The translations under genes and the position numbers were made by a program. A DNA stretch of 59,892 bases, taken from assembly GCA_000934665.2 (NCBI GenBank), contig JYFJ02002294.1:1-59892 (forward strand), read 5' to 3'. The stretch's first letter is position 1. Every line of letters begins with the position of its first letter. The notes below the pieces were generated by a model that saw nothing but the letters and a program-made list of their open reading frames with translations, was not told the DNA's origin and did no database searches. Shown piece by piece: positions 9,224 through 46,772 of this stretch. The stretch is from Catajapyx aquilonaris. Taxonomy: Eukaryota.

Positions 9224-11937
9224 ATGCCTACTGGCATATACCAATGGACAGTCCTGATATTAGCAGGTAATATACATACTCACATGCTTTTCCCTTACAA
9301 CTGTTATTTTGGACTTTTTCTACCTAGGATCTGCATTTCTCAACTTTACAAGTGCTTGTAGTAGTAATGATCTGAGGTCTAAGATGACTCAAATAATCCA
9401 TGAGAAATTTGGAACTACGGAGTCTGTTCCTCTGGATGCTCAGCGTCTTGCACAAGGATGCAGGTAAGCAGGCTACACTTTTCGATACACTCTGAAGGTA
9501 TAACTGAAATGTATTTCAGTGCTAACGAATCCCTTCACAATGAGCTTGTTGCTGTTGCCCAACAATGCCTTCAACCAGAAAGGGTGCCACTAATGACAAA
9601 ATTCATTGTCGCTGTCATTGAGCAGATGTGTACTCCAGGGCATTATCAGAATGGTATGGATCTAGTATTTTGTTCCTCAAAGCACTTGATATAAAAATGT
9701 TTTACGATTGCAGTGTTGTTGAAAAATGCAGAGTGTTTACACAACAGCTGGTCACACGCCATCAAGTGCGCTGGCAGAGCTGCGAAAGAGTTAGGATCTG
9801 CTTCACAGATTAATATAGCTCAAAAGTGCTGGTGAGTAGTAATGGCTGAAGTAGAGATTACAGCCCAGACGCCATATCAATTAGGAAACAGCTACGTGGG
9901 GGAAGTGACTGGTGACCCCAGAATTAATTCCTCAAGCTGGACCAGAATGTAGGCGGGAACATTGTTATCGCTCAGGCCGAGGCGTACGTTGCCTTGGTTA
10001 TGAACAAACACTCCAATGACTCTAACTTAATTCCAACCCGTGTATGCATAAGTCAATCAATTGGGAGGTTGGCAACAAAATAAACTGAAGATAGGGCTGT
10101 ATCCGCAAGGAAGGAAGGAAGGTTAGGTTAGGTTGGTACTGTACAGTGGACCCCTACACCTGCCACAATGAAGCACTGAAAATATAAACATGCTTGCCCT
10201 GCGGGCTTCCATACACTAACGACTATTGCATGTCACCAACCGGGCCGAAAGTTACGTGACTGGTCAATTGCTGGCCAGGTGAAAATCACAAGCGTCACCT
10301 CTCAAGCATTTTCGAGTAATTAGCAATTAATGTGCTGCATGAGCCCCGGAACTGTACTGTATGGCCCCTACAATGAAAATTTCCATTGTTGCCTAGCAAA
10401 TTCTTGAGCTGGCCTATTTGTTCGTAACCTAGGCAATATACACCTCGGCCTGAGCGATAACAATGATTCCGCTTGCATTCTGGTCCAGCTTCAGGAATTA
10501 ATTCCGGGGTCCCTACCACGATGCAAAGGTGCAGGTACTGCTTCCTAATTGATTCAGCGAATGGGCTGGGTAAGGGTGCAGTTTAGAGCCGCAAAAGTCT
10601 TCCAGGTTTCTATATATTTTCTGAATCTACTCGATGAGCTGAGTCGAATGACACTATTCCTAGTGTGCGGAAATGCTTGGTGCAGGAGTAATTGAATTTT
10701 GAAATTGCAAGTAATAACAATGAATAAATGAAAATAAACAAGTGTTCCTTTGTTGAAACAGTTTACTCCCATTGTTGAGTGAATGAATATCCGTGGTAAT
10801 TTTAAACGTCGTTTGGGGGTTGTGTGTTCGCAGAAATACTGTCCGCCTTGTGGTGGCGTAGATGTGGGTGTTGCGGATGTGGATGTGGCAAAGCCACAAT
10901 AACGTTCGTTGGCCTGCGGCGCCACAAGACGGACAGTAAATGTTGCGGATACAGAAACCCACAATAAGCGCCCAGCTCCGCTATCGCTCCGCAAAAACTA
11001 AAAATATCACGCACAGGCGACATACCGTGCCCGGCAGGGCCACAAGACGGACAGTACTGGTGCGGTCACACCAACGCCTCACAGATAACACCAACACAAT
11101 CAGAGTGGGGCATGCCTTGAGTAAAACCTTAGGATTCATTTTGTTGGCGGGCAAGAGGCCTCGAGCAGTGGCCCAGGAGATACCAAGCAACCTCCCTCAT
11201 TACTTCCAGGAAGGCTTGCCTCGGCCACGGACGCTCCTGAATGATGTTAAATTAAACTCCTACACTCTTGTTCTATGTCCAACGAACCAAGAACAACCAT
11301 TTATTTACATCATTCAGCATCCCTCACAGCACGTTTCCATGGAATCTCTCACGTTTCCACGGAGAATCACCTGACGCAACAATGGGAGTGAACAGTCTCA
11401 ACAAAGGAACACTTGTTTACTTTTATTTTATTCATTGTTATTACATGCAATTTCAAAATTCAATTACTCCTGCACCAAACATTTCCGCACACTAGGAATA
11501 GTGTCATTCGACTCAGCTCATCGAGTAGATTCAGAAAATGCATAGAAACCTGCAAGATTTTTGCGGCTCTAAACTGCACCCAAGCCATGGGCTGTATTCT
11601 TGACGTGAACCTATATAAAGAAAGTTTGCCATTATTTCTTGCTTCCATTTTACAGTCCTCTGAACGATTTCCAATCGTGCATTCAGAAATGGGCTGGAAA
11701 ATGCGGAAAGGATGCTATTGATTATATGGATCAATTAGTAGATAAAATGGTGCCTCCCAGTTTTAAGGTAATTTTATCAACTAGAGTACAACTGTAATTG
11801 GGTGGCAGTAACAGTATTGATGTTGATGGTTTTAGGCTCTTTGCAAGATGGCTGGCTGTGTGGATATCTTGGGCGCGCTCACGGGCTCCTCTAAGAAGGG
11901 TAAATCTAAGGGTGGATTACTGGGTGGATTACTTTAA
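9224..11937 (+). CDS. Secreted 12-Cys protein, paralog 1 (214 aa). Exons 9224-9266, 9328-9463, 9520-9653, 9714-9831, 11656-11767, 11836-11937
   Basis: Hand-spliced open frame MPTGIYQWTVLILAGSAFLNFTSA-C...CTPGHYQNVLLKNAEC...CCPLNDFQSCIQKWAGKC...ALCKMAGC; hydrophobic N-terminus; same exon phases and Cys spacing as the three downstream paralogs. Confidence 0.85.
9877..10553. mobile_element. MITE-like element with ~130 bp imperfect terminal inverted repeats, in intron 4 of paralog 1
   Basis: 9877-10007 is the reverse complement of ~10416-10553 (ATCAATTAGGAA/TTCCTAATTGAT; TTGTTATCGCTCAGGCCGAGG/CCTCGGCCTGAGCGATAACAA). Confidence 0.75.
10569..11586. mobile_element. Non-autonomous DNA transposon with ~200 bp TIRs (Mutator-like by structure)
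   Basis: TIRs ~10569-10775 and ~11378-11586 (GG..GGGTGCAGTTTAGAGCCGCAAAA / TTTTGCGGCTCTAAACTGCACCC..CC); 8-bp TSD ATGGGCTG at 10561-10568 and 11587-11594. Confidence 0.8.
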
Positions 11938-12419
11938 TAGGTTAGGGAAGCCAGGAAAAATTGATTTATAAGCTTAACAGTATTAGGCCCAAATTTACAC
12001 CTGAGACATTTTATCAAAGTGTATAGTGTAAAAGGAGTTTGTCAAGTGTTTTCTGAAAATGTAAACGTGATTTCCGCCCCCCCCCCCCCCCCCCCCCACT
12101 TCCNCATTTAGCACCTCCTTACTCTTTATCTTTCTTTTAAAATGTAGTTTTAGCAGCTAGGAAATGTGGGACAAAAAAAAAAATATTCCAAAAGTGAAAT
12201 ATTCAATTGTGTACTGTAATTTAGGTATGAAATATTATTCTCAAACTTATGAAGATATGTGGGGATTCTCGATTCTATTTCAAGTTGAATATTTACAAGA
12301 GTCTAATTGATTAATTATTATTATTGCATTCTGCAGTGTGTTTCACCTGAAATGTATGCATGGTTTGTGATTGTTTCATAATAAGCTCCCTGTTATTGCA
12401 CTGTTGCAGTTTTTACTTA

Positions 12420-12650
12420 CTTATTTATTTATTTATTTTACCATGTACTGGGCCACAGAGGCCCTTTAGGGGGGGGGGGGGGGGGGGGGNGGGGGGGGAC
12501 CTCCTCCCTATACAAAACCAAACCCAGTTCGCATCACACAAGTATAAACAGTACAAAGGACCCCAGTTTTTCCAGCGATACACTTCATGAACAATAAATC
12601 TGATAAAAAAAAACAACTGTACATTTGTGTCTTATTTCATTTCCCAGAGA
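12420..12650 (-). mobile_element. 3' end of a non-LTR retrotransposon (hairpin plus (TAAA)n tail); 5' boundary approximate
   Basis: Minus strand reads CCCCTAAAGGGCCTCTGTGGCCCAGTACATGGTAAAATAAATAAAT, the same terminal architecture as other retroposon tails in the window. Confidence 0.5.
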
Positions 12651-12816
12651 TCCAGAATGGATATTAAGCTAGTTAAAAAATGGCATAACAGAAAGGCTGA
12701 CTGTTTCGTTAATGATGCATATTATATACAGTGGATTCTATTTGGAAGAACATGCCAGAGGCTTACCATAAATTTATTTCTAAGAGAACGAATCTGAATG
12801 AATTCTGTTATCATAT

Positions 12817-12963
12817 AATTATTTATTTATTTATTTTCCTTACCCCGGTGGGCATAGTTGCCTTTGGGGGGAAACAGCTGCCAGGCAGATACATTGTAGA
12901 GAACCTAATTTTGTATTGGGGAAGCTCTCTCCGCCCTAAGGGGTAACCCCCATGGCGTAATAA

Positions 12964-13040
<77 letters not shown>

Positions 13041-14056
13041 CATTGTAGAGAACCAGTGAATTAACAAGAGAAAAAAGAAAGAAAAAAGAAGAAAAAAATG
13101 ACTTTTTTTTTTTAAATACAAGGACACAAGACTGAACCTTCTGTCATGCGCACAGGACGTTGGCAAGAAAGTTAAATAGGTTGTAGTGATTTTCAGTAGT
13201 AAGATCATAGGTCATTCTAATCAAGTTGAGACCCGGAGCAGGTGGGAATGCTTGTAAAAATCTACTTCAGGGTGTGGCTAATGCCGGACACTGATAAAGT
13301 ATGTGGTATAGGTTGAAGGGTTCGTCGTAATTGCAAAGATCACAGTGTTCCTCCTCACTTAGCTTCAGAGATTGCATATTAATCCTAATATAGGTGGAGT
13401 TATTTTTAATATTGATAAGCATACGGGTTATTGGAAGAGGTAAGGAGCTTTGGAGATATTGCGTCGTATTTACTTCGTCGAACCATGCCTCTTTATAACT
13501 GCCATATCTGGAGGTGTTTAAAAGTTTCGCCAAATCCGCCTGAAAACTATTCGCCGCAAGTTGTTCAAGGTAACCCTTGATGTCAATATCGTTTATCTGG
13601 GCGAGATCTGTACCCGAGATTGCAAGGTGTTTTAAAACCTGGTCTATCCAGCACATGCGTTTGGTTTGGCCCGTCGCCAAGATTTGACTTCTGATGTGTG
13701 CCTTGTGGAGAAGGGTTTCCTCATCTGCTCTGTCAAGTTTAACTAAGAATCTAAACAGCGATTTAATTATTCGTGGCCGAATGGGACACAGGTCTAATTC
13801 CAGTCTTAAGAAATAGCCCGCTGTCGACTTTGGGAGTGCAAAGAATTTTTTAATGAACATGTTAAAAACCCCCTCCAGTTCATCAAAGTAATTTAATGAC
13901 CAAACTGGTGCTGCATATGTCAAGGTCGGGAAAATTTTTGCGTGGAATAGTTTGAGAGCCGTTGCAAAACTCCGTATCTTAAGCTTCAGGAGTGAAGCCC
14001 AGAGCGCGTGTATAGCTGCTTTTGCCTTAGCAATAAAAAACTGCGCCGTGCGTCTG
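12817..14056 (-). mobile_element. 5'-truncated non-LTR retrotransposon (post-RT region plus CCHC finger; RTE-X-like)
   Basis: ORF 13267-14064 has KLFHAKIFPTLTYAAPVWS...FFALPKSTAGYFLRLELDL and C-terminal CDLC...NLYHILYQCP; 3' UTR ends in a hairpin and (TAAA)n tail at ~12817-12870. Confidence 0.85.
12906..13040 (+). mobile_element. Short retroposon 3' end nested in the LINE 3' UTR
   Basis: Hairpin CGCCCTAAGGGGTAACCCCATGGCG, AATAAA, long (ATT)n; perfect 14-bp TSD CATTGTAGAGAACC at 12892-12905 and 13041-13054. Confidence 0.85.
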
Positions 14057-14066
14057 GTTATCATGT

Positions 14067-14431
14067 AATAATAATAACAATAATAATCCTTGGGTAGTGC
14101 CTGACCTTATAATTATAGGGTATGCGGCACGGACCTTTATTATACTTGAAGTACAATGCAGTACAATGCTGGAACCTTGAGCGAATCGCCCGGGCCCACG
14201 GGCAGGATGACAGGAGGGGATGTGCAAGGTGCAGTGCAATGTCTTAAACGTGGCCATTTTTAGTGAACTCCCCTGGGTGGTTTAGTCTGTAGGAAATACC
14301 ACCCGAGATGAAGCCAGAGGTGACCCTGAACTCTGCACGAGATGAAGGGGGTGTCCCTGGGCTGGGATCGAACCCAGGAACTTAACATCCGTGGGCGCAT
14401 ATACGTTACCGCAGCACCACTCCGCCTCCCC
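14067..14431 (-). mobile_element. Full-length tRNA-derived SINE
   Basis: Minus strand begins GGGGAGGCGGAGTGGTGCTGCGG (A box) ... GGGTTCGATCCC (B box) and ends in (ATT)n; related partial copy at ~27670-27817. Confidence 0.85.
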
Positions 14432-15777
14432 ATTCTGTTATCATATGATGGACCGAGAAGGGCGCGCCTAAATTACGCAGGTAGCAAGGGTTTTGCATTG
14501 TTGCATTGCAATGGGCACACAGTTGTTGTCATGTCTGCACCATTTACTTTCACCAAGATACTACATTAAAATATGTAACTAGTTCAACATAAGCCTGTAT
14601 TTGTTCCATAAAGTTTCTAGATATACGTACTTATAAATTTTATTATAAGTATATCTAGAACCTTGATGGAACAAATACAGGCTTATGTTGAACTAGTAAG
14701 CCTGGTAAAAAGGTCTTATTCTGTTGAAATGAAAGTAAAATTGGTTCTGGATGCGAAATCTTGGTGGACAATGTACTTTTTAATGTTAGAAGCTTCTGAA
14801 AGAGAAAGGCAAAGTACCAGTGGTTTATTTGTAATCAGAAGAAACTGTGTACTTTCAAGGGCTAAAGAAATGGCCATGTTATTGTGGTACTACAATTTAA
14901 AAAATAAAAATAAGAAAGTAACCAAAATGAGATATATTCTCCGCAACAGGTAAATCACGACTGTTCTATTAGACAGACAAATCAGCAACCCTCCCATTCC
15001 AAACAAACTACCCAACACACTGAGTACATAGCAACAGTTTCCATGAAAATCCACCAGACAACAATTATGCCCAGTCCGGTTGGCAGAACTGGCACACTAC
15101 AATATAAAATGGAAGAGTATTTGCATAATTATAATCTACACACAACATATTCACACATCTCACATTATTCACATCTTCACATCACTTTATACATTCTAAT
15201 AATGTATATGCTATGTAAATAGTTGTTATACTGTATTTCAGTGCATGGTTTGAAGCAATAAATTCATGTTTCCAATTTATCTTGCACATGAAATTTATTA
15301 TGGGAAGCCTAGACTTTGCAGATCAGATTAAGCCATTTCAGGCACTTTTTTCTCTCTCTCTCCTTGCATTGTTACGTTTACAACTTTTTGTGAGAGATAG
15401 CTTAGGTCATTGCAGCTATTCAGATACTACTCAAATGATGAAGAAGTGACTTTCAATTGTACTTGTTGCATACAAGTGGCATTGGCTATTTTGTGAGGCA
15501 GATGTGTAAAACAAGAAGTGCTTGTAACCAAAACCTGTTATTGTGGCCCTCTCTATTGTGTTCCTGAAGAGGATAAAGCTTGACATTGAACAGATTGGAA
15601 TTGTAAGTAACTCATGAGACTGCAAAGAACATTCTAATTGATCACATGGTAATCATGGTGGCTGCTTAATGGCAAAATCGGAATACTGTATAGTTGAGAG
15701 ATAGTTTGACATAAGTTTCCTTGCAGAAAAAGATAAAGAAAACCATAGGCACTAATTAAGGTTCAGACTGAAGGGAC

Positions 15778-16742
15778 ATGCAGGTGACAAAGTATGCCCA
15801 ATGTTATGTGTGTACCTTGTTCTTGTTGTCAGGTAAGTCTAATTTATTACTAATGGAAGCGTGTGCTATACTGATATAATTATCCGTAATTCATTTTAGG
15901 ATTTGTGACCGTCCACTCTGCAAAGAATGAAACTATGTGCAAACATAAACCATTGAAGACACTCATTAACGAAGCTCGGAAAAAGTTTGACATCGGGAAT
16001 AAAATCCCTGTGGGCAGGGAAGAACTGATCCCAATTTGCCTGTATGCAAGTTATATTAAAATTATGAATTGCCCAGTGTGTAAGGTCATTGAATAGTTTC
16101 TTTTCAGGAAGCATCAATCTGTCAGTGTAGCAATTGGAGAAATTGCAAAAGATTGTGCCCCAAAATATCTTCAAGCGATGGCTGTAAAAAGTATAACTCA
16201 GTTCATGAAAAATATCTGCACTGGAGGCCTTTACCAAAATTGTATGAATGCTTTAATAATATTTTGTTTTCAAGTATTCTCAGGGTCTTATGCAACCAAA
16301 TCGAAATGATAATATTGTTTCTTCCATTTTCTTCCAGTGTATTATTCGAATTCTAAGTGCTTAGATGCTAGTTTTGAAATAGGCTTAGAATGCGTTTCCA
16401 CGTTTGTGATGATGGTGAGGGACAAACTTTATAAATTGGAGATTATCAAGCTGTGCTGGTGAGCAATTGGAGCAAGTGCTGGCCGACTCAGTGACATTGC
16501 CAAGCAGTCATTCTTTTCTTTCACCAGTCCCATAAAGACGTTATGGACTTGCATGACGGATTGGGCACAGAAATGCAGCCCTGGTGGAGCTACTTTCATG
16601 GAAAAGACGTTCGCACAAACTACTCCGGAGATGGTGAATGTAAGTGCCATTTGTAGACTGTAATTTTCTTGTTTCATTTACTCCTTTTTTTTCCCCTTCC
16701 ATATCAAAGCTTCTATGCAGATCAGAAAAGTGCTCCACATGA
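15778..16742 (+). CDS. Secreted 12-Cys protein, paralog 2 (198 aa). Exons 15778-15832, 15900-16041, 16108-16241, 16338-16458, 16528-16639, 16710-16742
   Basis: Spliced ORF ...CTGGLYQNLYYSNSKC...CCPIKTLWTCMTDWAQKC...LLCRSEKCST*; intron phases 1,2,1,2,0. Start codon and the last (AAG) acceptor are less certain. Confidence 0.8.
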
Positions 16743-17672
16743 CCGCACCATGTGTCTCCCGCCAGGATACATGTGATGTAGATGTGGATGTATCCAACTG
16801 GTTTTAATGCTTTTTTTTTGTCCCTTCTGTTGAATTCTGATCAGCAGGACTTTCCAATGTGGACAGTTGAAATACATGGCTCACTTACCCCAGAGTTGTG
16901 TGAAATACTGTTGGGGCCAAATTCTCATTGTTAATGCGGCATATACTAATTTTATAACCAAATATCGACCCTTGTGAAATGAATGAATGTGACGTTGAAC
17001 TGAACTATTGATCTAGGCCTGCAGAACCAGGATTGTAATATTATATTGCTAGTGATATCCAGTGGAACTGTTTATTGTTTTGTTAATATTTACAGCCTTT
17101 TGTGAATGATACCTGGGGTTATACAACACTGACATTCAGTTGGTAGAGAATGGAATATTGTAGTTGTAAATTCTGTGACATGAAAGCATTAAAATTTGGT
17201 ATCAGTTATGTTTGTACAGACATGAGCCCAAGAGTGCTTTTTCACCCATTTCGTCACCAAACGTCATTTTGTATATGTGTATTAGGCACTCTCCCACTTG
17301 GCTGCCCTGCAGCACGCAGTAAGTAGGGGCGGTTTTTGTAGCCTATTATTTTTTTCCTGCAAATATCACCTGGGTAATTGGAAAAGTGTAGTTAATGCAC
17401 CATAATATTGTAAGATAAGGGTAATCCTATGGCAAAGGCAACGTGAACTTGTAGGGCAACCCAGAACAACTTACCGAACATACTTTTGTCTCAGTTTCTC
17501 TTATCTAGTTGTAAATTGGGTCCAGTATTTGAAAGCAGCTGCGGCTACTCTTTATGGAGTTATTCGTAATATTTAATACAGCCCGAACTCTGTACATGAT
17601 AATTATCATGATGATGATTATATACTAATACTAATAACATTTTTGTGCAGATAGGGGGAAACACAAGTCATT

Positions 17673-18410
17673 ATGTTTCCACACTATTGCCTACATGTTT
17701 TCCTGCTTCTAGCAGTAGGTAAGTCTACTTCACATTGTTTGTGTACCATATGTCACCAATGTCACTTATTATCGAGTTTGCTGATAAGTTATTGCTGTAC
17801 AATTCAGGATTCATGACTGCCAGTGCTCAAATGTGTGAAGAACCCTTTACGATGGAGCACATCATCCCATATCTGAATAAGAAGTATTCCTTCACTGGAA
17901 CTGTCCCAAAGGATGCTGATGAAGTGACCACCGTATGCACGTACGGACAATTTTACCAGAGCAATTGTGTGCTGTGTAACTAAAAAATGCTGTTTTAATA
18001 AGTGACGGTTTTAAAACTTTTTTCTTGATAATGTTAGCCTGGAATTATTACCTTTTAATACCGTAACACTTTTAAGAACATGTGGCGCTTAAAAATGCCT
18101 CATAAACATAAGATTCATTTGTTACACAGACCGAAGCAGTGGTAGCGGAGGGGATATGGTATCCGACTGCTAATCGGGAGGTCCTGGGTTCGAACCCCGG
18201 GGGCCGCCGACCCTGACCGTGGTTTTCCATGGTCCCACCAGGACAATTCTGGGGTCGTGTCCGTAATTATAGGCCACAGCCGCTTCCTTCCGTCCCTATC
18301 CCATCCCCAATAAGGAAAAAGTAAAAATGCAAGAAAGAGTTCCAGACAGAAAAAAATATGGTGGTATCCCACCCCCCTAAGAGAGCCCATGGCTCTAGCA
18401 CGGGGTACAA

Positions 18411-18483
<73 letters not shown>

Positions 18484-19353
18484 GTTACACAGCACCATTG
18501 TTGTATATATCACTCAAAATGATGGAGACACTTTTGCATTTGGCTTCAATTCAAAATATTGTCTCCATCTTTTTGAGTGATACAGTACATTCTGTAGGAC
18601 ACTGTTTATGTGTAACAATTTTGCCCACTTTCAGTAACACTACAGACCTTCGCCTGGACTTGGGTAAATTTATAAAGCCATGCATACCTTCAATGGCACA
18701 CCCATTGGCGGCGAAAGGTCTTGACGTCGTGTTTCAACAACTATGCACTGAAGGGCCCTTAAAAGAGAGTATGTTTTGGAACACTAATAACTCACTATCC
18801 ATTTAAAAATATTTTACTTTGCTCATTTTTACTCTTTTTCTAGCAATTGTGCTGAGTGCTCCTTGTGTAAATGAGAAAATCCTAGGTGGATTTCAATGCG
18901 TTACTAATTTACTTGAAAAGTTGACAGAGGTCCTTGCAAAATATGAACTTAAGAACGCCTGCTGGTGAGGACTAATATCACAGTTGGTGATGTGAGAATA
19001 TTGCAGCCATTGCCTTTATTTATTTATTTTCTTTCGCAGTCCCGTCAAACAGTTTTCAGGTTGCATGACAAGGTGGTCAAGTCAGTGCAATGATGAAGTG
19101 GTTACCTTTTTTGAAAAAGCGATCCAAACAATTATTCCCGCCATGTTCAATGTAAGTTTAAAGTGTGTCTTATTACTGTACATACAGTATAATGTGCAGC
19201 ATAATGGCATTTATTGGTTTTGTTTCACTCTTGCAGATACTGTGCAAAAATGCTAAGTGTGCTCGACTAGCACCAACTGGTGATGGAACACCACCAGCTC
19301 CAACTACCACAACACCACCTCCTCCACCAGTGGATCAATTCGGGTACTACTAA
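17673..19353 (+). CDS. Secreted 12-Cys protein, paralog 3 (220 aa, Pro/Thr-rich tail). Exons 17673-17718, 17808-17940, 18635-18768, 18844-18964, 19040-19151, 19237-19353
   Basis: MFPHYCLHVFLLLAVGFMTASA signal-like start; ...CCPVKQFSGCMTRWSSQC...ILCKNAKC; same exon phases as the other paralogs. Confidence 0.85.
18130..18483 (+). mobile_element. tRNA-derived SINE with Talua/Lm1 (Inv)-like core, in intron 2 of paralog 3
   Basis: A box and B box (GGGTTCGAACCC); core CTGACCGTGGTTTTCCATGGT...TAGGCCACAGCCGCTTCCTTCC; 3' stem-loop; (ATT)n tail; TSD GTTACACAG at 18121-18129 and 18484-18492. Confidence 0.85.
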
Positions 19354-21290
19354 TTGGCTACGTCTGTCTGTTTGTTTGTCCAGGGTGAGGCATCACCTCA
19401 AGTCAGCCACCACCAGGACAGGTTGGTGTGGGTGGCTGACACACCCCGATTAAACAACAAGCCTGCTGATGACAATGTATAAAGTGGTGACAGAAATACT
19501 ATTGCAGACGGCACCATCATGCACAGCATACCCATTGTGTAAGATGGCAAATTCTTTGAGGCATTGTGAATTATAATCTATGGAAATAAAAGTATCAATC
19601 AGCATGGATGAAATGTGATTTATTTTTATGTGCAGTATATTTTTGATGGGTTCTTTCTGCGTTTGCATGATTTTTCTTCTTGCTGTCATACAGTTTGAGC
19701 TTTTTTTTTTCGGCTTTCTCCTTTTTCCGATCCCTCGTTGCTTGGTCATGATTACTACGCTAAAGGACCAAATTAACCAACCAGCAACAGCTGTTCATCC
19801 ATGACACATCCATGCTCTGATGGTCCAGTTGCATAGAAGAAGCATATAATTGTGCAGGTATCTTTTTTCTCCCTCTTAACGAGGGAACAGAAGAGTCATT
19901 AGATCTTTGTAGTTTAGTAAGCGGCCACAAAGACCATTCACAGTAAACCAGACAACACAACAACAATAGACCACCAACTTGCTTTTTTCTTCTTTTTTTC
20001 CCTTACTCATGGTGTGGCCTTAGGTGCCTTGGGACCTAATATTCAATCTACGTTTTTTCCCCCCTTTTGGACACATGAGTACCTAAAGCTGTACTATATT
20101 CATGTGTAGCTATACTGCTAAATTAGGAACTTGTTTTTACTACACGGTGATAACATGTAATGGTATTCAGTTATCTATTTAATACTTTATGAAAGGAATT
20201 CATAATATTAGAGTTTTTGTGCTACTACAATATAGAATGTACTTGTTTTATAAGGTGAAAATTAGTAGAGCATATTACATGATTGCAGACTATTTTTATG
20301 CATTTTGCATTGTCTGCAATTTATTTGTAAAAGCAATTCTCCTCTCAGGAATGTCATATTGCTACTGACCCTAATAAATTGATGTTATGTTAATAATAAT
20401 TAATACTGTTTCCAAGTAGGCCTTAGAGTTTTGCAAGTGAAGCAATTCCATGAACTGATAATATGTGTATACTTACAGTTAGTGAGTCGCATGAGGGATT
20501 TATTTAGCAATTTTCAAAATCATCCTGCACAGGAGTTTGTGAGCCAAGTTTATTGGTTTTCTGAGAAGATGGTCCACGATACCTGGCAGTCATTGTTAAT
20601 AATTTTTTACAGCCGATTGTGAAAGGTATACCAAGCACTCTCGTCCATTTCCCTTCAGTGTAAAGTGTCAATTGTGTAATGTCTACGTAAATGCAAGAAA
20701 AAAGTGTTTCGAGATCTTTTTTTGTTATCTGGAAGAGCATAAAACTAGTGCTATAGGTAATGTGGGTAGCAAGTTGTGTTTTCTAAACTTATCCAGCTTC
20801 TCTGGCACGTAGGCATATCATAGAAGCAGTTATTATTGCTAATTAAGTACTAACGTCACTAATAAAATGAGGGAGCAGTGGCTACGTATGTTAGGCGTCC
20901 CGTGTGCAAAATCAGTGGAAATTTTAGTGCAGTATTTTTAACAAATTCTTCGTCTCTGGAAAAGCTGATGGATTCAGTTTCAAGCTTTGGATTGTAATGC
21001 AAAGTTATCTGTGCAAGTGTGACAAAATATTCACGTGTTATTGTGGCAAAAAATAATAATATCAGTGCTGTTACATCAAATGAAAGGGAAGATGAGGTAT
21101 GCTTTTTGACGTTACCTGTTGTACTCAGGGTGTACTCTCAGTAAAGTAGAGGCTATTTCAAATGCAATTTTTAATGTCATTCACCTTGCTGTTGTGTTGG
21201 TAGTTGGCGGTGCCATATTTGCGCAATTATTTGTTGTTTTCACAGAGTCTTGCCCTTAACAGATTGTGAGGAACTGAGACCTATGGCAAT

Positions 21291-22633
21291 ATGCATTCAT
21301 ACCGACTGCACCATCTTGCTGTCCTGATTCTGGCAGGTACACTTGCCCAGCAACACTGGTGCATTGAAATCTTTCAACTGACATGTTTTCTTGCCTCAGA
21401 GTTAACTGCAGTTACCCTTGCACGCAATTGTGTGTTTAATGATGTGCAATCGCAAATGAAAGCAATGGTGCGGAAACATTTTGGCATGACAACCCACATA
21501 CCCGTAAAGCAGGAAGACATTTTCAACGGATGCAGGTTTCATCTCTATATTATTCTCTTTCAAAACGCATCATGCATTCCCATCATGAGTGTACGATTTA
21601 TTTGTTGTTTTTAGGACAGTTAATATTTTGAAACTGGCGACGCTAGATCTTTCAAAGGATTGCTTTCCAGCAATGGCAAGACCAATTATCATGAGCGCCT
21701 TGGACTCCTTATTTGACAAGATGTGCATCCCTGGACACTACCAACAGGGTCTGAACAACTTTGTGTACATGTCTTACAACCAAATTACATTTTGTATTTT
21801 ACTTACAGTGTACCTGAAGAACGCTAAGTGTTTTAATGACCGTTGGCTTGGAGCCATTTCCTGCATCAGTACAGCAGTGTCTGCCGTTAACAGTGCCACA
21901 GTCTTCAAGGTTTTAAACATGTGCTGGTTAGATTTAATTCTGAGCCTGAAATCAAACTGTGTGACATTTATTCCCCCTTCCTAATTGTCGTATTTCCTTT
22001 TTTTCAGTCCTGCAAAAAATTTACTCTCCTGCGTCCACACCTGGTCTAAAGAATGCAGCGCAAAAGGGTCTGAATTCATGATCCAGACTATAAAAGCTAT
22101 TATTCCCCCCTTATTTAAAGTAAGTAAAAGTGATCTTTGCTAATTGTAGCCTTTAAGTGCACAGTTAGGCCCCTTTCAAAATTACTTTAAGAATTTAAAA
22201 AAATTATAAAAATTGAAGAAGAAATAATCTTACATAAAGTATTGGAGATCAATGAATATGATCATCACAATTACTTCACTTGTGGGCTAGATCTGTGTAA
22301 TGATATGCATAATGATGGAATTACATAATCAAGTTAGTCATGAGATTTGGAAGGATATATTGCAATAGGCATTAAATATGCATAGTGGCTCTCAGCAAAT
22401 GGAAAAGTACCATTGGGGGGCATAATAATATTGTGCAATTTTTATCAATAATATCTGATGAGATATAGTAATGTCGCCCAATTTTCCAATTTCAGACTCT
22501 TTGCAAAATGTCGCAGTGTCCTGTGAATACAGATGAATTTTTGCCGGCTGACGCCCGAAACTCACCAAAGTCACCGCTCTCGTCGTCTATAAAACGTTTA
22601 TCATCTAGTTTGTTCTCTCGTCTTGGTGGGTAG
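21291..22633 (+). CDS. Secreted 12-Cys protein, paralog 4 (227 aa). Exons 21291-21336, 21400-21535, 21615-21748, 21809-21926, 22008-22119, 22496-22633
   Basis: MHSYRLHHLAVLILAELTAVTLA start; ...CIPGHYQQVYLKNAKC...CCPAKNLLSCVHTWSKEC...TLCKMSQC; same exon phases as the other paralogs. Confidence 0.85.
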
Positions 22634-22874
22634 GACATGGTTGTGTTGAAATGTGCAAAAGCGGTTGTCATGCAAAATTCGTCGTTCATTTCTACCAAGG
22701 AAGCACGCTGACGGCATGCATATAATTATTTGTGTTGTGTGTTACATTATTGCAATCTGTACAACCCAAATGGTAATCTGTGGTTCTTATAATGCTGCAT
22801 TATAGTATGTATAATAATTGTGGAAATAGTGCATGGTATTAATGTACCTTACAGATGATTTGTGATTGTGCTTA

Positions 22875-23050
22875 GTAATATCATTGTAATTTTATTATAG
22901 GCTACTCTAATATTATTGTAATTTTGTTATACTCTAATGTTATTGTAATTACGTATATTATACTCTAATATTATTGTATGATGTAATTATATAATACTCT
23001 AATATTGTTGTATGATGTAATTTTGTTATACACTAATATTATTGTAATTT
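22875..23050. repeat. AT-rich degenerate minisatellite (ATACTCTAATATTATTGTAATT-like units)
   Basis: About five imperfect tandem copies are visible. Confidence 0.7.
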
Positions 23051-37358: not shown

Positions 37359-40065
37359 TTAAACATCGGCATGATCGGTTCCGTTTGTGACGGTCCAGGA
37401 TGGTTTTGAGCCAGTCCGTCCAAGCTTCAGCTGCTTCTTCGTTTTCTCCTTCTTGGAATTAGCCTCTTCCTGCAGAAATCAAACCAGTCAAGATATGTCA
37501 CAACATTTCTTTTTAATCGACAACTTACCGTCATGAGTTCTTGGAGTTTCCGAAGAGCCTCGTGGTATTTCGCCTCCTGCACCTCCAGCGCTTTTCCTTT
37601 GACCGGAAGAGGCTTGATCTTTGCCATTCCGGCCTCTTTCAGCATCCTCTTCAACGGTGCCACCTCCTGTTTAGACAGGATTATAATGCTGGTACCCTCC
37701 TTCCCACCCCTGGCTGTTCGTCCTGCTCTGTGCACGTATGTCCTTAGATGGAAGGGCATGTCGTACGATATCACACAGTCCACGTCTGGGAAGTCCATCC
37801 CTCGGGCCATTGCGTCGGTTGAAACTAGGACAGACGCCTTTCCGGATACAAAATCGCGCTTGTTCCGCTCTCGCCTGGCTGAATTTGCACGTGATGAGAG
37901 CTCGCGTGTCTTGAGCCCCATAAGCGCAAGGAGTGTGGCCAAACGGTGGGCAGAGTCAGCCGAGTTGGTGAATACAAGCAGGCGACGCCATGAACGGAAG
38001 GTGGCCAGGTGGTGGAGCAGCAGCGGTTTGATGCTGGGGTTGCACACGCACATTAACTCCCGGAGTTCAGTCGGCATAGTGTAGCGGCCGATATACTCCC
38101 CAGAAGGTGCAGCACTGAAATAAATGAGTGTAAAAACAAATCTGGCTGTGATTACACCGCTATTTACCTCTGCTTCGCATCAGGCTTGTAATCCTCCAGC
38201 TTCGGCAGGCCAACCGCAGTGAACAGCTTCGGCTGGAACAAGTTCAGCTCCTGCAGCTTCTCCGGGTTCTGCGAGAGTGTGGCTGAAAACAGCAGCTTCT
38301 GCAGGCCTGTTTGCGGGCTGCTCCCTGCCGTAATAGTCCTCCCTCCTCCTGCGGCCATCCCCGCCCTTTTCTCCAACAGCGCCATCCAATCGGACACTCC
38401 GTCCATCACCCTGTCCGCCTCGTCCATAACCAAAAACCGCAAGGCTCGCAAATCCAGACCCTCAGTGCGATTCAGGTGATCCACCAACCGTCCTGGAGTC
38501 GCCACAAGGATGTCCACTTTGCTCTCGAGGTGGTCGCCGGGTGTCTGCCTCAAGAGGTTGTTTTGCTCTGTTTTGAATGGCTGTGCAGGCGATAGCAGAG
38601 CAGGTACCAAGGAGGAATTGGAGCAGAATGTGCGGAATACTTGGTACACTTGGGCGGCCAGCTCCTGTACTGGCAGCACCACCAGGGCTCGGATTCGGGG
38701 GACGACACGTGTGTGGAGAGCATTCACTATTGGGAGCACGTACGCAAGGGTTTTCCCACTGCCAGTTGGAGCTGACACGCATACGTCATGCGGACGGAAG
38801 AATGGTGCTGACATTGAGTCTAGAAGCCATGGGATCACCTGCCGTTGCACTGAAAACGAACCGCTATTGAGCACAGAATTCAACAAGAAACAGAAGTGAA
38901 TTTTTGCACAGCGCAACACAATACCTGGAAAGAAGTAAGCGATACCGTTCTCATTCAACTTCTTCGCCAATCCTTCGCTCAAGCCCTTCATGTCTACAAC
39001 AGGCAGCTGATCACCTTTTAAATCGACGGACACGATTGACGGATTGGCCAACCAATCGGGGAGGACTCGTTTCACCTGAAAATACAAATTAATTAACACC
39101 ATGCAAATTCTGTAGCGTAAGTAATCACCAACCTTTTCTTTCGCTTGTTGATTAACTTGTCCAATGATTGTAAATCCGCCAACTTCACGATACATTTTCT
39201 GCGCATTTGGACCTTTCTTACCATTCGCTTTGTCGGGTTCGCCAGTAAGTTTCGCTTGCTTCATATTCTTCTTCCCTTTTACCTCATTATTATTTTCATT
39301 ATCATCAGTTGTATGTTCCGTACTGTCTATTTTCTTATCTTTCTCTGCATGTTTTTTAACCTGCTTAGTACATTCTTCGGCCGTTTCATCCAGATCCTTT
39401 TTCCTTCCCTTAGTCTTCTTCTTTTCCTGCTCATCCTGCTCTAGGGTTGATGTTTTCGGTTCCTCATGTCGCTGATGCTTCTTCTTCTTTTTTGGCTTCT
39501 CTTCTTCAGGTTCGGGAATTGAACGTCTTCGCTTTCGTTTCTTCCGTCTTGTCGCATCCTCCATGTCTCCATTTTCAATGATCTCTTCCTTCACCTGGAC
39601 AATTGGGCTGTCAGATGCGCTTTCTTCATGCCGCTTAGCTTTCTTCTTCTTCTTCGGCCTTTCTTCTGTCTGCAACTCATTTTCGTCACATATCTCTTCT
39701 TTCACCTGCGGAATTTCCTTTTTCTTCTTCTTCCTATGCGTTTCCTCCGCCAGCGCTTCTTTGCTATCCAACGACTTGCTTTTTTTCTTCGGCTTCACTT
39801 CCCCGTCACTCGTGGGCTTTTCCTTCCTTTCCTTCCTCCGTTGTGCCGACAGCAGTAGTTCAGCCAGCCGCTTCTTCTCCACTTCCTTCCTGTTCTCCGA
39901 AGCCACCTCATCTTCACCCCAATACCTATTAGGGCAGCAAGTTTACAGTAAATTACCTAATGTTAATTAATCTGCCATTAGCCACATGTGTGTGTGTTAT
40001 ATGACCTTTTGACCCGCCAGCGGCCCAAGAACATACCTCTGAACCGATCCTTCCATTGTGGGCAT
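37359..40065 (-). CDS. DDX51: ATP-dependent DEAD-box RNA helicase DDX51/Dbp6-like, ~783 aa. Exons 40065-40037, 39925-39133, 39075-38925, 38849-38168, 38114-37529, 37469-37359
   Basis: VKRVLPDWLANP; FFPVQRQVIPWLL; DVCVSAPTGSGKTLAY; TPGRLVDH; DEAD; LFSATL; YVHRAGRTARGG. Splice phases consistent. Confidence 0.93.
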
Positions 40066-40764
40066 TCGAACGTGAACGTGAACGTGAACGTAAACGTAAA
40101 CGTCAAGAAGCACGCTGCTTCTCAGGCCTCACTTGTTTTCCTATGGGCGCCGCCATGACACCATGACGTCACACTTTGTACTGTTTACATGTGACCAGCA
40201 CCCGTGAGTGATCCAATCGGTGCTCGAAATCGTGAAAGACGCATGCGCACTATGATAATAGATTGGATGGTATAACCTGGAATTGGTCCAATCGGAACTC
40301 GTCGTTGCCAGACGCATGCGCACTATGGAGGGATGCTGGATGGTGTAAACGCATTCTGATTGGTCCAAATTGGTCGACTGTATGCACGAGCGGAAAGTTC
40401 AAATTGTTGAAAACCCTCCTGGGAAAGTGTATAATCAAATTCAATTTCAGATTAATATATTTATATTAAAAATGCAGCATAAATAATACAAATATTTATT
40501 CAAAAATGCAGTATAAAATACAAATATTTATTTACAAATTCAAAAATTGGGGACATTGGTAGAGCCACTTCCCGAGGGCTCGTCGGTAAAAATGTGATCC
40601 CACAGGAATGCATCCGACCTCATTATTGAAGGCCTACTCTAAATATATTTTACAGAAACTTAATATTACTGGATAACTCCTATTCTAAATGTCGACCTCT
40701 CCGGTTGACAACCCTGAGCAGTGCTGAAGTATTGAAGGTTCCTCAAAAGATCTGCATAAATATC

Positions 40765-43730: not shown

Positions 43731-44315
43731 TTGGAAGAGCTGGCTGGGCCTGGGAGAGGAGCTGAGGGTCGAAAAGTACTGCACAGAGTGTGGGGGAAGG
43801 TTGCGCAATACAGTCAGGAAGAGGGGTTATTCACTTATATTTTTTGCGTACACGGACTACCCGGACTACCCTCGGACTACCTACCAAGGTGTACACGGAC
43901 TACCCTTCGAGACGCTGGGCTGTCGAGTCAGGGGGCGAGAAGAGGCCCAGGTGTGAGGAGAGTGTGCTATACGGATAGCCACGATGGCGGAGACAGTTTG
44001 ATGGAACCTGTTTGATGTACCTGGGAGTATGCACCACGGCCAATCTCCTCTTGAACCAGGCGTTTCCTCCACATATGCTTGCAATATTGAAGAGCTCATT
44101 TGCAAAACTACCCAAGTCAATAGGTAGTTTCGGAAATGAGCTCTTCAATTAGTCTCCTCTAGCGCGATGTGTTTCCTCCGCATGTGCTTAGTCAGGCAGG
44201 TATTGACGATGGTTATTCCAGACACTGTAGGACCTTAAACCCTGGGCCCCAGATAGGGCCTATATCATCACTACATAAGTCCCTTCTTTCGAATCGAACC
44301 CAAGCCGTCATAGGG

Positions 44316-44833
44316 TCATGACTCGACCATTGGGCGACGTGTTCTCTCCAGGTCCTGGGCGACCGGACGGGGTGTCATGCCATCCTCCAACTGTATGAGA
44401 AGTCGCTGCCTCGCCGCCCATGCCGTCCGCGCCAGGATGTCCGGGGGAACCAAGCCCGCCAGAGCGAAGAGCGCGTTCGTCGGTGTTGTCTGATAAGTGA
44501 GGGTCATGGCGAACAGAAAAGGACGTAAGGGCCTCCGCAGGTGATTTTGGACGCCCAGAGCCGAGGCACCTCTACCCCACACCTCCGACCCGAATATAAC
44601 AGCATCGGCAAGATAGCCTGCGTCGCTTTCAGGATGACACCCCTGCTCCCAGAGCCTCTTAACTCCTCTGGTGTGGATCCCTCCAAGACCCCCACCTGGT
44701 CATCCGCATAGGCCTGTGGATGGTACCTGGTAGCGTCCAAGTCCCGGAACCAGTAGAACCAGCAGTCCATGGCCACAATCTGTAGCGTCGGTCCAAGGCT
44801 GCTCCCCTGCGGAGAGCCCCGATCCATGAGCCA
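44316..44833 (-). pseudogene. Decayed non-LTR reverse transcriptase fragment (R1/I-group-like)
   Basis: Motifs RGSPQGSSLGP, QAYADD, TTPTNALFALAGLVPPD, with frameshifts and internal deletions. Confidence 0.8.
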
Positions 44834-44839
44834 TTGACT

Positions 44840-45030
44840 AGTAGTGGTTAGCGCGCTCGCCTCTGGTCCCAAAGTTGTGGGTTCGAAACAGGCCGATGTC
44901 GGTGACTATTCTCCGGGTAGTAGAAAAGTGAGTGCGCCTTCCTTCGGAGGGGAAGTAAAGCCGTCGGTCCCGTGTGCTTGTGACATTGCGCGAGTGCACG
45001 TTGAAGATCCCCAGAGTTGCCAAATTTCCA
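44840..45030 (+). mobile_element. tRNA-derived SINE fragment with Deu/Nin-like core; second head fragment at ~46213-46312
   Basis: TAGTGGTTAG...GGGTTCGAA boxes, then CCTTCCTTCGGAGGGGAAGTAAAGCCGTCGGTCCCGTG...GCACGTTGAAGATCCCC. Confidence 0.65.
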
Positions 45031-45060
45031 GGAGGAGGACCACCCCCTGGTGTCGGTGTT

Positions 45061-45460
45061 GTCCTCTCCAGCTCTCGGGCGACCCGTCCTCTTCAGCTCT
45101 TGCGCGACGCTTCCCTTCCTGCTCTTGCGCGACGCTTCCTTTCCTGCTCTTGGGCGACCCGTCCTCTCCTGCTCTTGGGCGACCCGTCCTCTCCAGCTCT
45201 TGGGCGACCCGTCCTCTTCAGCTCTTGCGCGACGCTTCCTTTCCTGCTCTTGGGCGACCCGTCCTCTCCTGCTCTTGGGCGACCCGTCCTCTCCAGCTCT
45301 TGCGCGACGCTTCCTGTCCTGCTCTTGGGCGACCCGTCCTCTTCAGCTCTTGCGCGACGCTTCCTGTCCTGCTCTTGGGCGACCCGTCCTCTCCAGCTCT
45401 TGGGCGACCCGTCCTCTCCAGCTCTTGGGCGACCCGTCCTCTCCTGGTCTTGGGCGACGA
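45061..45460. repeat. 25-bp GC-rich minisatellite with two interleaved variants (~16 units)
   Basis: Units GCTCTTGGGCGACCCGTCCTCTCCA and GCTCTTGCGCGACGCTTCCTTTCCT. Confidence 0.9.
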
Positions 45461-45589
45461 CCACGTCGGGAGGAACTCCCTCGTCCATGTACGCCCTTCC
45501 TGCTCCCAATCCTCCTGCCAGAGCCGAAGGCCCTCCAGATACCAACGTGCATTGATGTTACGATGGTCCTCTCCCAAATAGAGGTGGCC

Positions 45590-46205
45590 AGTCCGCCTCT
45601 CCGTCGCCTCTTCACCGCCTGGTCCCCCAACTCGTTGCCAAGTGTACAGAAGTGCGCTCGCACCCAGCCCAGGCGGACATGGGAGCCCCGGGGATCTCCA
45701 GCTCGATGTAAAAAATGCACGTGTCATGGACGAATGGGAGGTTCTCCACTGTCACCACCTCCGGGGGACCCACCATCCTCACCATCGCTTCTCCGGCTCC
45801 ATGGCTCATGAGTCATGACGGATCCATCCGTGAAGATCACCATCCCATTGTCGACTGGCCATCCTTCCCACGTCTGGACGTCCATCCTCTGCCAAGTCCA
45901 AGGCGCCGGCAGCGCTCCAGGAGCCACCGGACGGGGTGTAGTGCCGTCCTCCAACTGTCGGAGAAGTTGCTGCCTCGCCGCCCATGCCGTCCGCGCCCGG
46001 ATGTCCGGGGGAACCAAGCCCGCCAGAGCGAAGAGCGCGTTTGTCGGTGTGGATGCCTCCAAGACCACCACATGGTCATCCGCATAGGCCTGTGGATGGT
46101 ACCGGGTAAAGTCCATGTCCCGGAACAAGTTGAACCAGCAGTCCATGGTCACAATCTACAGCGTCTGTCCAAGGCTGCTCCCTTGCGGACAGCCCCGATC
46201 CATGA
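45590..46205 (-). pseudogene. Second decayed non-LTR fragment with RT and RNase H remnants
   Basis: GCPQGSSLG, QAYADD, VIFTDGS and LGWVRAHFCTLGNELGDQAVK (RNase H-like motifs) in shifting frames. Confidence 0.8.
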
Positions 46206-46325
46206 AAGCTGGTGCCGGTGGAATAGTGGTTAGCGAGCTCGCCTCTGGTCTCAAAGTTGTGGGTTCGAACCCGGCCGAGGTCGGTGACTTTTCTCCGGGT
46301 GGTATAAAAGTGAGAAAAAATCGCG

Positions 46326-46772
46326 CAAGCTGCTTGTTTATAAGCAAGTCGTTGCTAAGAGATGCTTTCTGGCTCTTTCTGGAGAATCGGGAATAGCACC
46401 TGCTGATATTAGGTCCAATGGCCATGTAACAATAATATTTTATTTGCTGGTAACTAAACAACGCTGCCTGTTGACCTGTCTCAGTTTTGCCAACTGCGGC
46501 CAACAATGAACAGACCAGAAGGCCTATTTATTGACACACCCGGGTCTGTCCAGTTCCGACGGATTAGACCTTTGGTTTGGCAGCTAGTGACCTCATGTGA
46601 AACCCTCCAGCGAACACCAGAACAGCCTGTTTCCCACGGATGACCCTTTTTGCCCTCATTAATATTGTTACATGGGCATTGGACCTAATATCAGCAGGTG
46701 CTATTCCCGATTCTCCAGAAAGTAACTCTTATTGATCTCTTAGCAACGACCTGCTTATAAACAAGCAGCTTG
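46326..46772. mobile_element. MITE with ~110 bp terminal inverted repeats
   Basis: CAAGCTGCTTGTTTATAAGCA...TTTCTGGAGAATCGGGAATAGCACCTGCTGATATTAGGTCCAATG is mirrored at ~46662-46772. Confidence 0.8.

What the first reader, a model, noticed from the sequence alone, without database searches (positions are those of the whole stretch)
9224..22633. Hidden tandem cluster of four highly diverged secreted proteins with an invariant 12-cysteine scaffold
Seen: four intact 6-exon genes that the ORF track does not recover. All have intron phases 1,2,1,2,0; exon 3 is always 134 nt and exon 5 always 112 nt. All have a signal-peptide-like N-terminus and the scaffold C-x32/33-C-x16-C-x20-C-x14-C-x10-C-x19/20-CC-x7-C-x7-C-x23-C-x4-C, with conserved CCP and CxxxWxxxC. 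Residues between cysteines differ almost everywhere. Inference: a fixed disulfide frame with hypervariable surface suits a ligand-binding, seminal/salivary, venom-like or immune effector family. It loosely recalls all-alpha DUF19/scoloptoxin-11-like and DUF1397 (27 kDa haemolymph) proteins, but I cannot assign it. This is the best candidate for an undescribed system in the window.
Basis: partly seen in the sequence, partly recalled or inferred. Interest (0 to 1): 0.8.

Follow-up and report, generated by a model that had tools for sequence, protein, structure and literature searches.

The report
Secreted branch of DUF19-like cysteine proteins
Four real, neighbouring arthropod genes encode small secreted proteins held together by twelve cysteines; they are a very divergent offshoot, without a membrane tail, of a known but uncharacterised protein family (DUF19), so the cluster is sound but not a new kind of system.

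Summary
In detail: four intact six-exon genes at 9224-22633 with the stated phases, exon sizes and 12-Cys spacing. Contigs of one public run join 9 of the 10 introns of genes 3 and 4; genes 1 and 2 were not tested. Two more copies lie on contig C3132. No relative was found in public proteins using single exons or a half-domain. The family is still assignable through its own genome. A gene that passes the Pfam DUF19 cut-off (C512) and four genes on C176 share the cysteine frame and the intron positions. A profile of these five scores all six proteins at 26-51 bits, a level reached by 0 of 500 cysteine-fixed shuffles each. The genome's DUF1397 gene shares three introns, a weaker link. Six of seven relatives end in a hydrophobic, GPI-like tail that the six lack. 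'Fixed frame, hypervariable surface' was not supported: core and surface columns diverge alike, and dN/dS is about 0.85. The scan earlier noted a two-domain DUF19-like cluster elsewhere in this genome. Verdict: a soluble, lineage-restricted DUF19-like branch; function unproven.

The parts
9224..11937 (+). g1: six-exon gene, 214 aa, signal-like N-terminus, 12-Cys domain, Gly/Lys-rich tail; intron 4 swollen to 1824 nt by inverted-repeat elements
   Evidence: splicing not tested by reads
15778..16742 (+). g2: six-exon gene, 198 aa, ends two residues after the last Cys; last acceptor is AAG
   Evidence: splicing not tested by reads
17673..19353 (+). g3: six-exon gene, 220 aa, acidic, Pro/Thr-rich tail; contig runs to 19604, AATAAA at 19585
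   Evidence: (introns 2-5 joined in run X1)
21291..22633 (+). g4: six-exon gene, 227 aa, basic Ser-rich tail; contig runs to 22761
   Evidence: 5 of 5 introns joined in run X1
9914..10511 (.). inverted-repeat (MITE-like) element in g1 intron 4, arms 102 nt, 86% complementary
   Evidence: the label MITE is inference
10574..11581 (.). second inverted-repeat (MITE-like) element in g1 intron 4, arms about 200 nt, 89-95% complementary
   Evidence: the label MITE is inference
13267..14106 (-). 279-codon open frame, probably the C-terminal part of a LINE-type element between g1 and g2
   Evidence: weak zf-RVT match, 14.9 bits, below cut-off

Best explanation
The four genes, with two more on contig C3132, form an old, lineage-restricted, soluble branch of the DUF19 (T20D4.11-like) 12-cysteine family. 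SHOWN: intact genes, splicing of g3 and g4, homology to DUF19-type genes of the same genome, and absence of the hydrophobic C-terminal tail that most of those relatives carry. INFERRED: each protein enters the secretory pathway, loses its signal peptide and folds into a roughly 19-23 kDa helical bundle closed by six disulfides. The ancestor was tethered to the cell surface by a GPI-type tail; this branch lost the tail and is released. With no catalytic motif and only five invariant non-Cys residues (three Pro, one Gly, one Trp), the most likely job is non-enzymatic binding to extracellular proteins or microbial surfaces in haemolymph or gut, each paralogue with its own partner. Confidence in the family assignment is about 0.9 and in solubility about 0.8; the number below is for the whole statement including the binding/defence role.
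For: Bridge to Pfam: exon 4 of the C512 gene matches DUF19 positions 79-148 at 26.7 bits, cut-off 23.2. Exon 5 of h1 (C176) and of another C512 gene match DUF19 below cut-off (13.5 and 16.2 bits). Cys spacing: h1 33,16,23,14,10,29,0,7,8,23,6; C512 25,16,32,14,10,25,0,7,8,23,7; window 32/33,16,20,14,10,19/20,0,7,7,23,4. Introns at C2+0 phase 2, C4+7 phase 1, C7+0 phase 2 and C10+21 phase 0 in 6 of 6 family genes; h1 has 4 of 4 at the same codons and C512 3 of 4. The profile of h1-h4 plus C512 scores g1-g6 at 50.7, 36.5, 41.8, 28.2, 30.6 and 26.1 bits; Cys-fixed shuffles reach at most 20.6, 0 of 500 each. In reverse, the six-gene profile scores h1-h4 at 21.5-47.9, C512 at 15.5 and C881 at 32.7 bits, 0 of 500 each. 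Tail hydropathy (best 13 of the last 30 residues): 1.7-2.5 in h1, h2, h4, C512, C881 and the DUF1397 gene, 0.45 in h3, and -0.4 to 1.45 in g1-g6. Partial models are all helix. Literature: in C. elegans DUF19 is a family of 51 genes, 42 with signal peptide, 140-220 aa, 14 up on infection (PMC3534327, table passage). DUF1397-type 27 kDa proteins occur in haemolymph and rise on fungal challenge (PMC4224417, passages), and occur in gut membrane and peritrophic-matrix proteomes (PMC12858984 and PMC5865745, passages).
Against: No exon of the six genes hits DUF19 or DUF1397 directly (0 of 13 window frames gave either family; 0 of 9), so membership rests on transitivity through same-genome genes, only one of which passes the cut-off, and narrowly. 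Identity to those relatives is only 12-21%. HHalign of the six-gene profile against single relatives gave no meaningful alignment (probability 2.7% for C512 and 0.2% for the DUF1397 gene). The tree has no well-supported branch, so monophyly and the direction of tail loss are not shown. No GPI or signal-peptide predictor was run; h3 lacks the tail and g1 ends in a short hydrophobic stretch. No ligand, tissue or induction data exist for these genes, and no DUF19 protein had a known molecular function in the papers I saw.
Confidence: 0.45

Rival explanations
1. Gland-specific secretion (salivary, venom-like, defensive or seminal): a DUF19-type scaffold recruited into an exocrine product and acting on another organism or a mate.
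For: DUF1397 was recruited into scutigeromorph centipede venom (PMC6878950, passage; PMC4379518, passages). Tandem duplication, loss of the tail and dN close to dS in g5/g6 (0.85 overall, exon 2 0.43/0.34) are typical of such proteins.
Against: No tissue data: the library of run X1 is not on record. dN/dS is not above 1 in any segment at significance. The host looks pancrustacean, not centipede (GTF3C3 52-53% to a crustacean and a cockroach fragment, 35% to a tick).
Confidence: 0.25
2. Soluble decoys or ligands for the tail-anchored DUF19-type proteins of the same genome: they share the fold, lack the anchor, and compete for or modulate the same partners.
For: The same domain occurs with a tail (h1, h2, h4, C512, C881) and without (g1-g6) in one genome.
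Against: At 12-21% identity a shared binding surface is unlikely to be kept. No partner is known and no binding was tested.
Confidence: 0.12
3. Odorant-binding-protein-like carriers of small hydrophobic molecules (Plus-C type) rather than DUF19 relatives.
For: Secreted, helical, 12 Cys, fast divergence, tandem arrays. An earlier unchecked note reports 12-Cys OBP-like clusters elsewhere in this genome (e1-7506890).
Against: The core C-x3-C of OBPs (recalled signature) is absent from the frame. No PBP/GOBP match on any exon. Profile scores and intron positions point to DUF19-type genes.
Confidence: 0.06
4. An unrelated new family whose likeness to DUF19-type genes is convergence of cysteine spacing.
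For: No true relative among 1.84 billion representatives with an exon 3-4 profile (1 hit, a repeat artefact). No direct Pfam hit.
Against: Shuffles that keep every Cys in place never reach the real scores (0 of 500 for each of 6), and four introns coincide to the codon and phase with h1.
Confidence: 0.05

Closest known systems
DUF19 / T20D4.11-like domain (Pfam PF01579), with its arthropod-type members in this genome (C512, C176 h1-h4, C881)
   Same: Signal peptide plus one Cys-framed domain of about 170 aa; spacings x16, x14, x10, CC, x7, x23 identical; introns at the same codons and phases; reciprocal profile scores above all Cys-fixed shuffles; tandem multigene arrays.
   Different: No hydrophobic C-terminal tail; C9-x7-C10 instead of x8; shorter C3-C4 loop (20 against 22-32); invariant CCP and Trp not seen in the relatives; no direct Pfam hit on single exons.
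DUF1397 (Pfam PF07165; insect 27 kDa haemolymph protein P27K type), gene on contig C1096
   Same: Three introns at equivalent places and phases (after the C2 equivalent, phase 2; after the C4 equivalent, phase 1, one codon further; after the C7 equivalent, phase 2); C-x10-C and similar spacings; 16.8 bits from the joint 11-gene profile, reached by 1 of 500 Cys-fixed shuffles.
   Different: No CC pair and no terminal C-x4-C; an extra Cys between C2 and C3; a longer N-terminal part; a hydrophobic tail. More distant than the DUF19-type genes (six-gene profile alone 10.9 bits, 5 of 1000 shuffles).
Scoloptoxin-11 (SLPTX11) family of Scolopendra venom
   Same: Secreted, about 20 kDa, many cysteines (6-19 per member; PMC4379518, passages).
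   Different: Reported only from Scolopendra in that review. No sequence comparison was made, so kinship is untested.

Membership tests
DUF19 (PF01579) | Full-length score above the Pfam gathering cut-off (23.2 bits) | not testable with these tools
   Only unspliced single exons or one exon-intron-exon frame were scanned; none hit DUF19. Known relatives also fall below cut-off when scanned exon by exon.
DUF19 (PF01579) | Sequence homology to a protein that passes the cut-off | tested here: met
   C512 exon 4 scores 26.7 bits. The profile of h1-h4 scores C512 at 65.7 bits; the profile of these five scores g1-g6 at 26-51 bits; 0 of 500 Cys-fixed shuffles each.
DUF19 (PF01579) | Twelve conserved cysteines in one extracellular domain (recalled from the Pfam/InterPro text, not from a call) | tested here: met
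   12 all-Cys columns in g1-g5; 12 in h1 and C512 with matching spacing.
DUF19 (PF01579) | Signal peptide, length about 140-220 aa (PMC3534327, table passage) | tested here: met
   Hydrophobic N-terminus in 4 of 4, 198-227 aa; judged by hydropathy only.
DUF19 (PF01579) | Shared gene structure with DUF19-type genes | tested here: met
   Of 4 internal introns, h1 shares 4 and C512 shares 3 at the same codon and phase; h2-h4 share them with shifts of up to a few codons or one loss.
DUF19 (PF01579) | Same three-dimensional fold and disulfide pairing | tested here: inconclusive
   Half-domain models only: pLDDT 55 and 69, all helix. No specific structural match.
DUF1397 (PF07165) | Match to the Pfam model above 25.7 bits | tested here: inconclusive
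   The family search of the genome scored 5 candidates; none lay in the window, and three exons on C1096 passed the cut-off. Full-length proteins were not scanned.
DUF1397 (PF07165) | Cys frame of the DUF1397 gene of this genome (extra Cys after C2, no CC, longer N-terminal part) | tested here: not met
   Spacing 21,30,8,10,23,17,10,23,8,7,21 against the window's frame; related, but not the same family.
Odorant-binding proteins (PF01395, incl. Plus-C) | Core C-x3-C pair and Pfam match (signature recalled) | tested here: not met
   No C-x3-C in the core of g1-g4; no PBP_GOBP hit on exons.
SLPTX11 | Sequence similarity and Cys frame | not tested
   No SLPTX11 sequence was in hand; only review passages were read.

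The most novel reading that the evidence does not exclude
DUF19 and DUF1397 are two branches of one old extracellular helical superfamily (shared introns and Cys frame). This arthropod turned it into a diversified recognition repertoire: a dozen or more surface-anchored members plus a released branch (g1-g6) that acts as soluble decoys or effectors under patchy positive selection.
Probability: 0.15. Interest if true: 0.6.

Novelty: new variant of a known kind. Interest (0 to 1): 0.32.

Why it matters
Modestly. It shows that 'orphan' cysteine-rich clusters with no database hit can be placed by intron position and by same-genome stepping stones. It also suggests that two families of unknown function, DUF19 and DUF1397, share an ancestor; I found no statement of this in the papers listed, but I could not check Pfam clan or InterPro records. 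Paired anchored and soluble members in one genome offer a handle on what the domain does. Lineage-restricted expansions of secreted cysteine-rich proteins are common, and earlier notes of this scan list several in this genome.

Tried and rejected
Homologue searches: g4 exon 3-intron-exon 4 frame, longer proteins only, 0 of 103 candidates at E<=10. Exon 3/4 alignment, 0 of 6520 candidates. HMMER against 1.84 billion representatives with an 11-row exon 3/4 alignment: 1 hit, a tandem-repeat translation, rejected. All three used about half the domain, with 20 intron-derived columns, so distant relatives may be missed. ESM Atlas: no usable hit for the g4 frame; for C512 exon 4, unnamed nematode clusters at 0.87 and a DUF19 cluster at 0.77, leads only. 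PDB sequence searches: designed PPR repeats with no significant single stretch and nothing under E 0.8, rejected. Folds: Foldseek 0 matches; VIA best Z 5.3 (rmsd 2.6, 43 aligned) and 6.0 (rmsd 3.0-5.3, 82-83 aligned), within the tool's stated noise for helices. CPG4 (PF15481): 2 weak matches elsewhere in the genome, none over cut-off. No RNA holder was listed as such; the one run is of unrecorded kind, and contig depth was not used to rank genes. Two alignments meant to chain exons 3/4 to exon 5 misaligned and were dropped, as was. No metagenome scan was obtained. A possible fifth copy at 40594-40755 (tblastn E 0.001) has a stop, lacks the exon grammar and did not score in the profile search: chance or a dead remnant. 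My first last exon for C512 (49270) was probably wrong; and the tree used it, and repeats the scores with the better exon (49840). The C2783 model picked a wrong exon-5 acceptor and its score is not used. In one search, g6 was left out because it is 71% identical to g5. Supplements of the centipede venom papers, which may hold SLPTX11 or DUF1397 sequences, were not opened.
Full report
Observation. Built by coordinates, each has six exons, GT-AG introns with phases 1,2,1,2,0, a 134-nt exon 3 and a 112-nt exon 5, an uninterrupted frame of 198-227 codons, a hydrophobic N-terminus and the Cys spacing 32/33,16,20,14,10,19/20,0,7,7,23,4. Pairwise identity is 21-31%. An exon grammar finds 11 of the 12 central exons and nothing else in the window, with 0 hits in 10 shuffles. 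On 18500-22900, contigs of run X1 skip 8 of 8 predicted introns and carry the end of g3 exon 2 as a loose end, so 9 of the 10 introns of g3 and g4 are joined. The run's library is not on record and it is one study; that the contigs come from RNA is inferred from the joints. g1 and g2 were outside the stretch laid.

More copies. Searching the genome found two more genes on C3132, with the same phases and exon sizes, 71% identical to each other and 24-35% to the window genes; g6 ends C-x3-C. Further single-exon searches returned the same six, one of them adding C176. Counts are lower bounds.

Public databases are silent. Three protein searches with half the domain found no true relative; Pfam had no relevant hit on single exons; the Atlas gave nothing. 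Full-length spliced proteins were not submitted to these tools, so distant relatives can have been missed.

The genome itself places the family. A family search found a DUF19 gene on C512 (exon 4: 26.7 bits, cut-off 23.2) and a DUF1397 gene on C1096 (three exons over cut-off). The C512 protein has the frame 25,16,32,14,10,25,0,7,8,23,7. A weak hit led to four more genes on C176; h1 has 33,16,23,14,10,29,0,7,8,23,6. In all six family genes the internal introns fall at C2+0 (phase 2), C4+7 (phase 1), C7+0 (phase 2) and C10+21 (phase 0); h1 has all four at the same codons, C512 three, and h2-h4 nearly so. A profile of h1-h4 plus C512 scores g1-g6 at 26-51 bits, whereas shuffles that keep each Cys in place reach at most 20.6 (0 of 500 each). 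The reverse test holds for h1-h4, C512 and a gene on C881. More exon-level matches lie on C512 and C2783. Against this: identities are 12-21%, HHalign on single sequences gave nothing, only one bridging exon passes the Pfam cut-off, and the tree is unresolved. The DUF1397 gene shares three intron positions and scores 16.8 bits with the joint profile (1 of 500 shuffles): probably a more distant cousin.

What differs. Six of seven relatives built in full end in a hydrophobic tail typical of a GPI signal (h3 does not); g1-g6 do not, g1 being borderline. No GPI predictor was run. The six also share CCP, the Trp, C9-x7-C10 and the 20-residue C3-C4 loop, which suggests one branch; the tree neither shows nor excludes this. 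Tail loss rather than gain is inferred because both the DUF19-type genes and the DUF1397 gene carry tails.

Selection. Hydrophobic and polar columns are equally diverged (0.24 against 0.22), synonymous sites among window genes are near saturation, and g5/g6 give dN 0.21, dS 0.25, p 0.58, with exon 2 at 0.43/0.34, p 0.64. A ratio near 0.85 is high for a conserved protein, so relaxed or patchy positive selection remains open.

Structure. Half-domain models are all helix, at low to moderate confidence (pLDDT 55 for a g4 frame that includes an intron; 69 for C512 exon 4). The averaged hydropathy has helical periodicity (85-110 degrees) in six of nine inter-Cys segments. No fold match stood above noise. 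Six disulfides are inferred from twelve conserved Cys in a secreted protein.

Mechanism. Most likely these are released, non-enzymatic binding proteins of haemolymph or gut (0.45). The basis is indirect: nematode DUF19 proteins are a large secreted family, 14 of 51 induced by infection (PMC3534327, table passage; also called a Cys-rich secreted protein in PMC3527274, passage). DUF1397-type proteins are found in haemolymph, gut membrane and peritrophic matrix, with function unknown (PMC4224417, PMC12858984, PMC5865745; passages). A gland product is the main rival (0.25), since DUF1397 was recruited into scutigeromorph venom (PMC6878950, passage). SLPTX11 was not compared. PMC2689271 and PMC12606440 only list DUF19 in tables; PMC13174244 does not mention it in the main text; PMC5869384 was seen as passages. 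The '12 conserved cysteines' of DUF19 and the OBP signature are recalled.

Verdict. A real, partly transcript-verified cluster; a divergent soluble variant of a known family of unknown function. An earlier unchecked note (e1-7593841) reports a two-domain 24-Cys cluster with DUF19 as closest match elsewhere in this genome; I did not locate it. Interest 0.32.

Noticed in passing
G000:C176:14700-23110 (-), loci L048-L049: Tandem cluster of four DUF19-type genes with the same exon plan; three have hydrophobic tails, h2 has lost Cys residues, and h3 has fused exons 2 and 3 and a Tyr/Met-rich tail.
   Followed up: yes
G000:C512:46800-79200, loci L027, L029, L064-L066: A further cluster: one gene built (passes the DUF19 cut-off; Gln-rich loops, Asn/Tyr/Arg-rich spacer, hydrophobic tail) and exon-level matches at about five more places.
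   Followed up: partly
G000:C881:50420-55500 (+) and G000:C2783:8100-13700 (-): DUF19-type genes with an extra Cys between C2 and C3, as in the DUF1397 gene; possible intermediates between the two families. C2783 exon 3 ends in a G-x-Y-Q motif like g1, g2, g4, g5 and g6.
   Followed up: partly
G000:C1096:13200-14781 (-), locus L023: Canonical DUF1397 gene with an acidic N-terminal stretch and a hydrophobic C-terminal tail.
   Followed up: partly
window 20831-21047: A 217-base unspliced contig of run X1 lies about 240 bases upstream of the g4 start; possibly part of a 5' leader, unexplained.
   Followed up: no
window 40570-40760 (+): Weak likeness to exons 3-4 of g1 with a stop and no proper splice pattern; chance or a decayed remnant.
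   Followed up: partly
window 14578-14697: Near-perfect hairpin, 52-nt arms 94% complementary, 16-nt loop, between g1 and g2.
   Followed up: no
window 12964-13044 and 18411-18482: Two long ATT microsatellites, one at the end of the LINE-like fragment and one in g3 intron 2, each next to an inserted sequence.
   Followed up: no
G000:C3132, loci L009-L011: g5 and g6 sit between a PIKK-type kinase gene (PI3_PI4_kinase plus FATC) and frames that read like pyruvate kinase (recognised by eye); their exon 1 and flanks are nearly identical while exon 2 is the most diverged part.
   Followed up: partly
window 37427-39942 (-) and 44300-46500: A DEAD-box helicase gene, and GC-rich repetitive frames with reverse-transcriptase-like fragments seen in the ORF list.
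   Followed up: no
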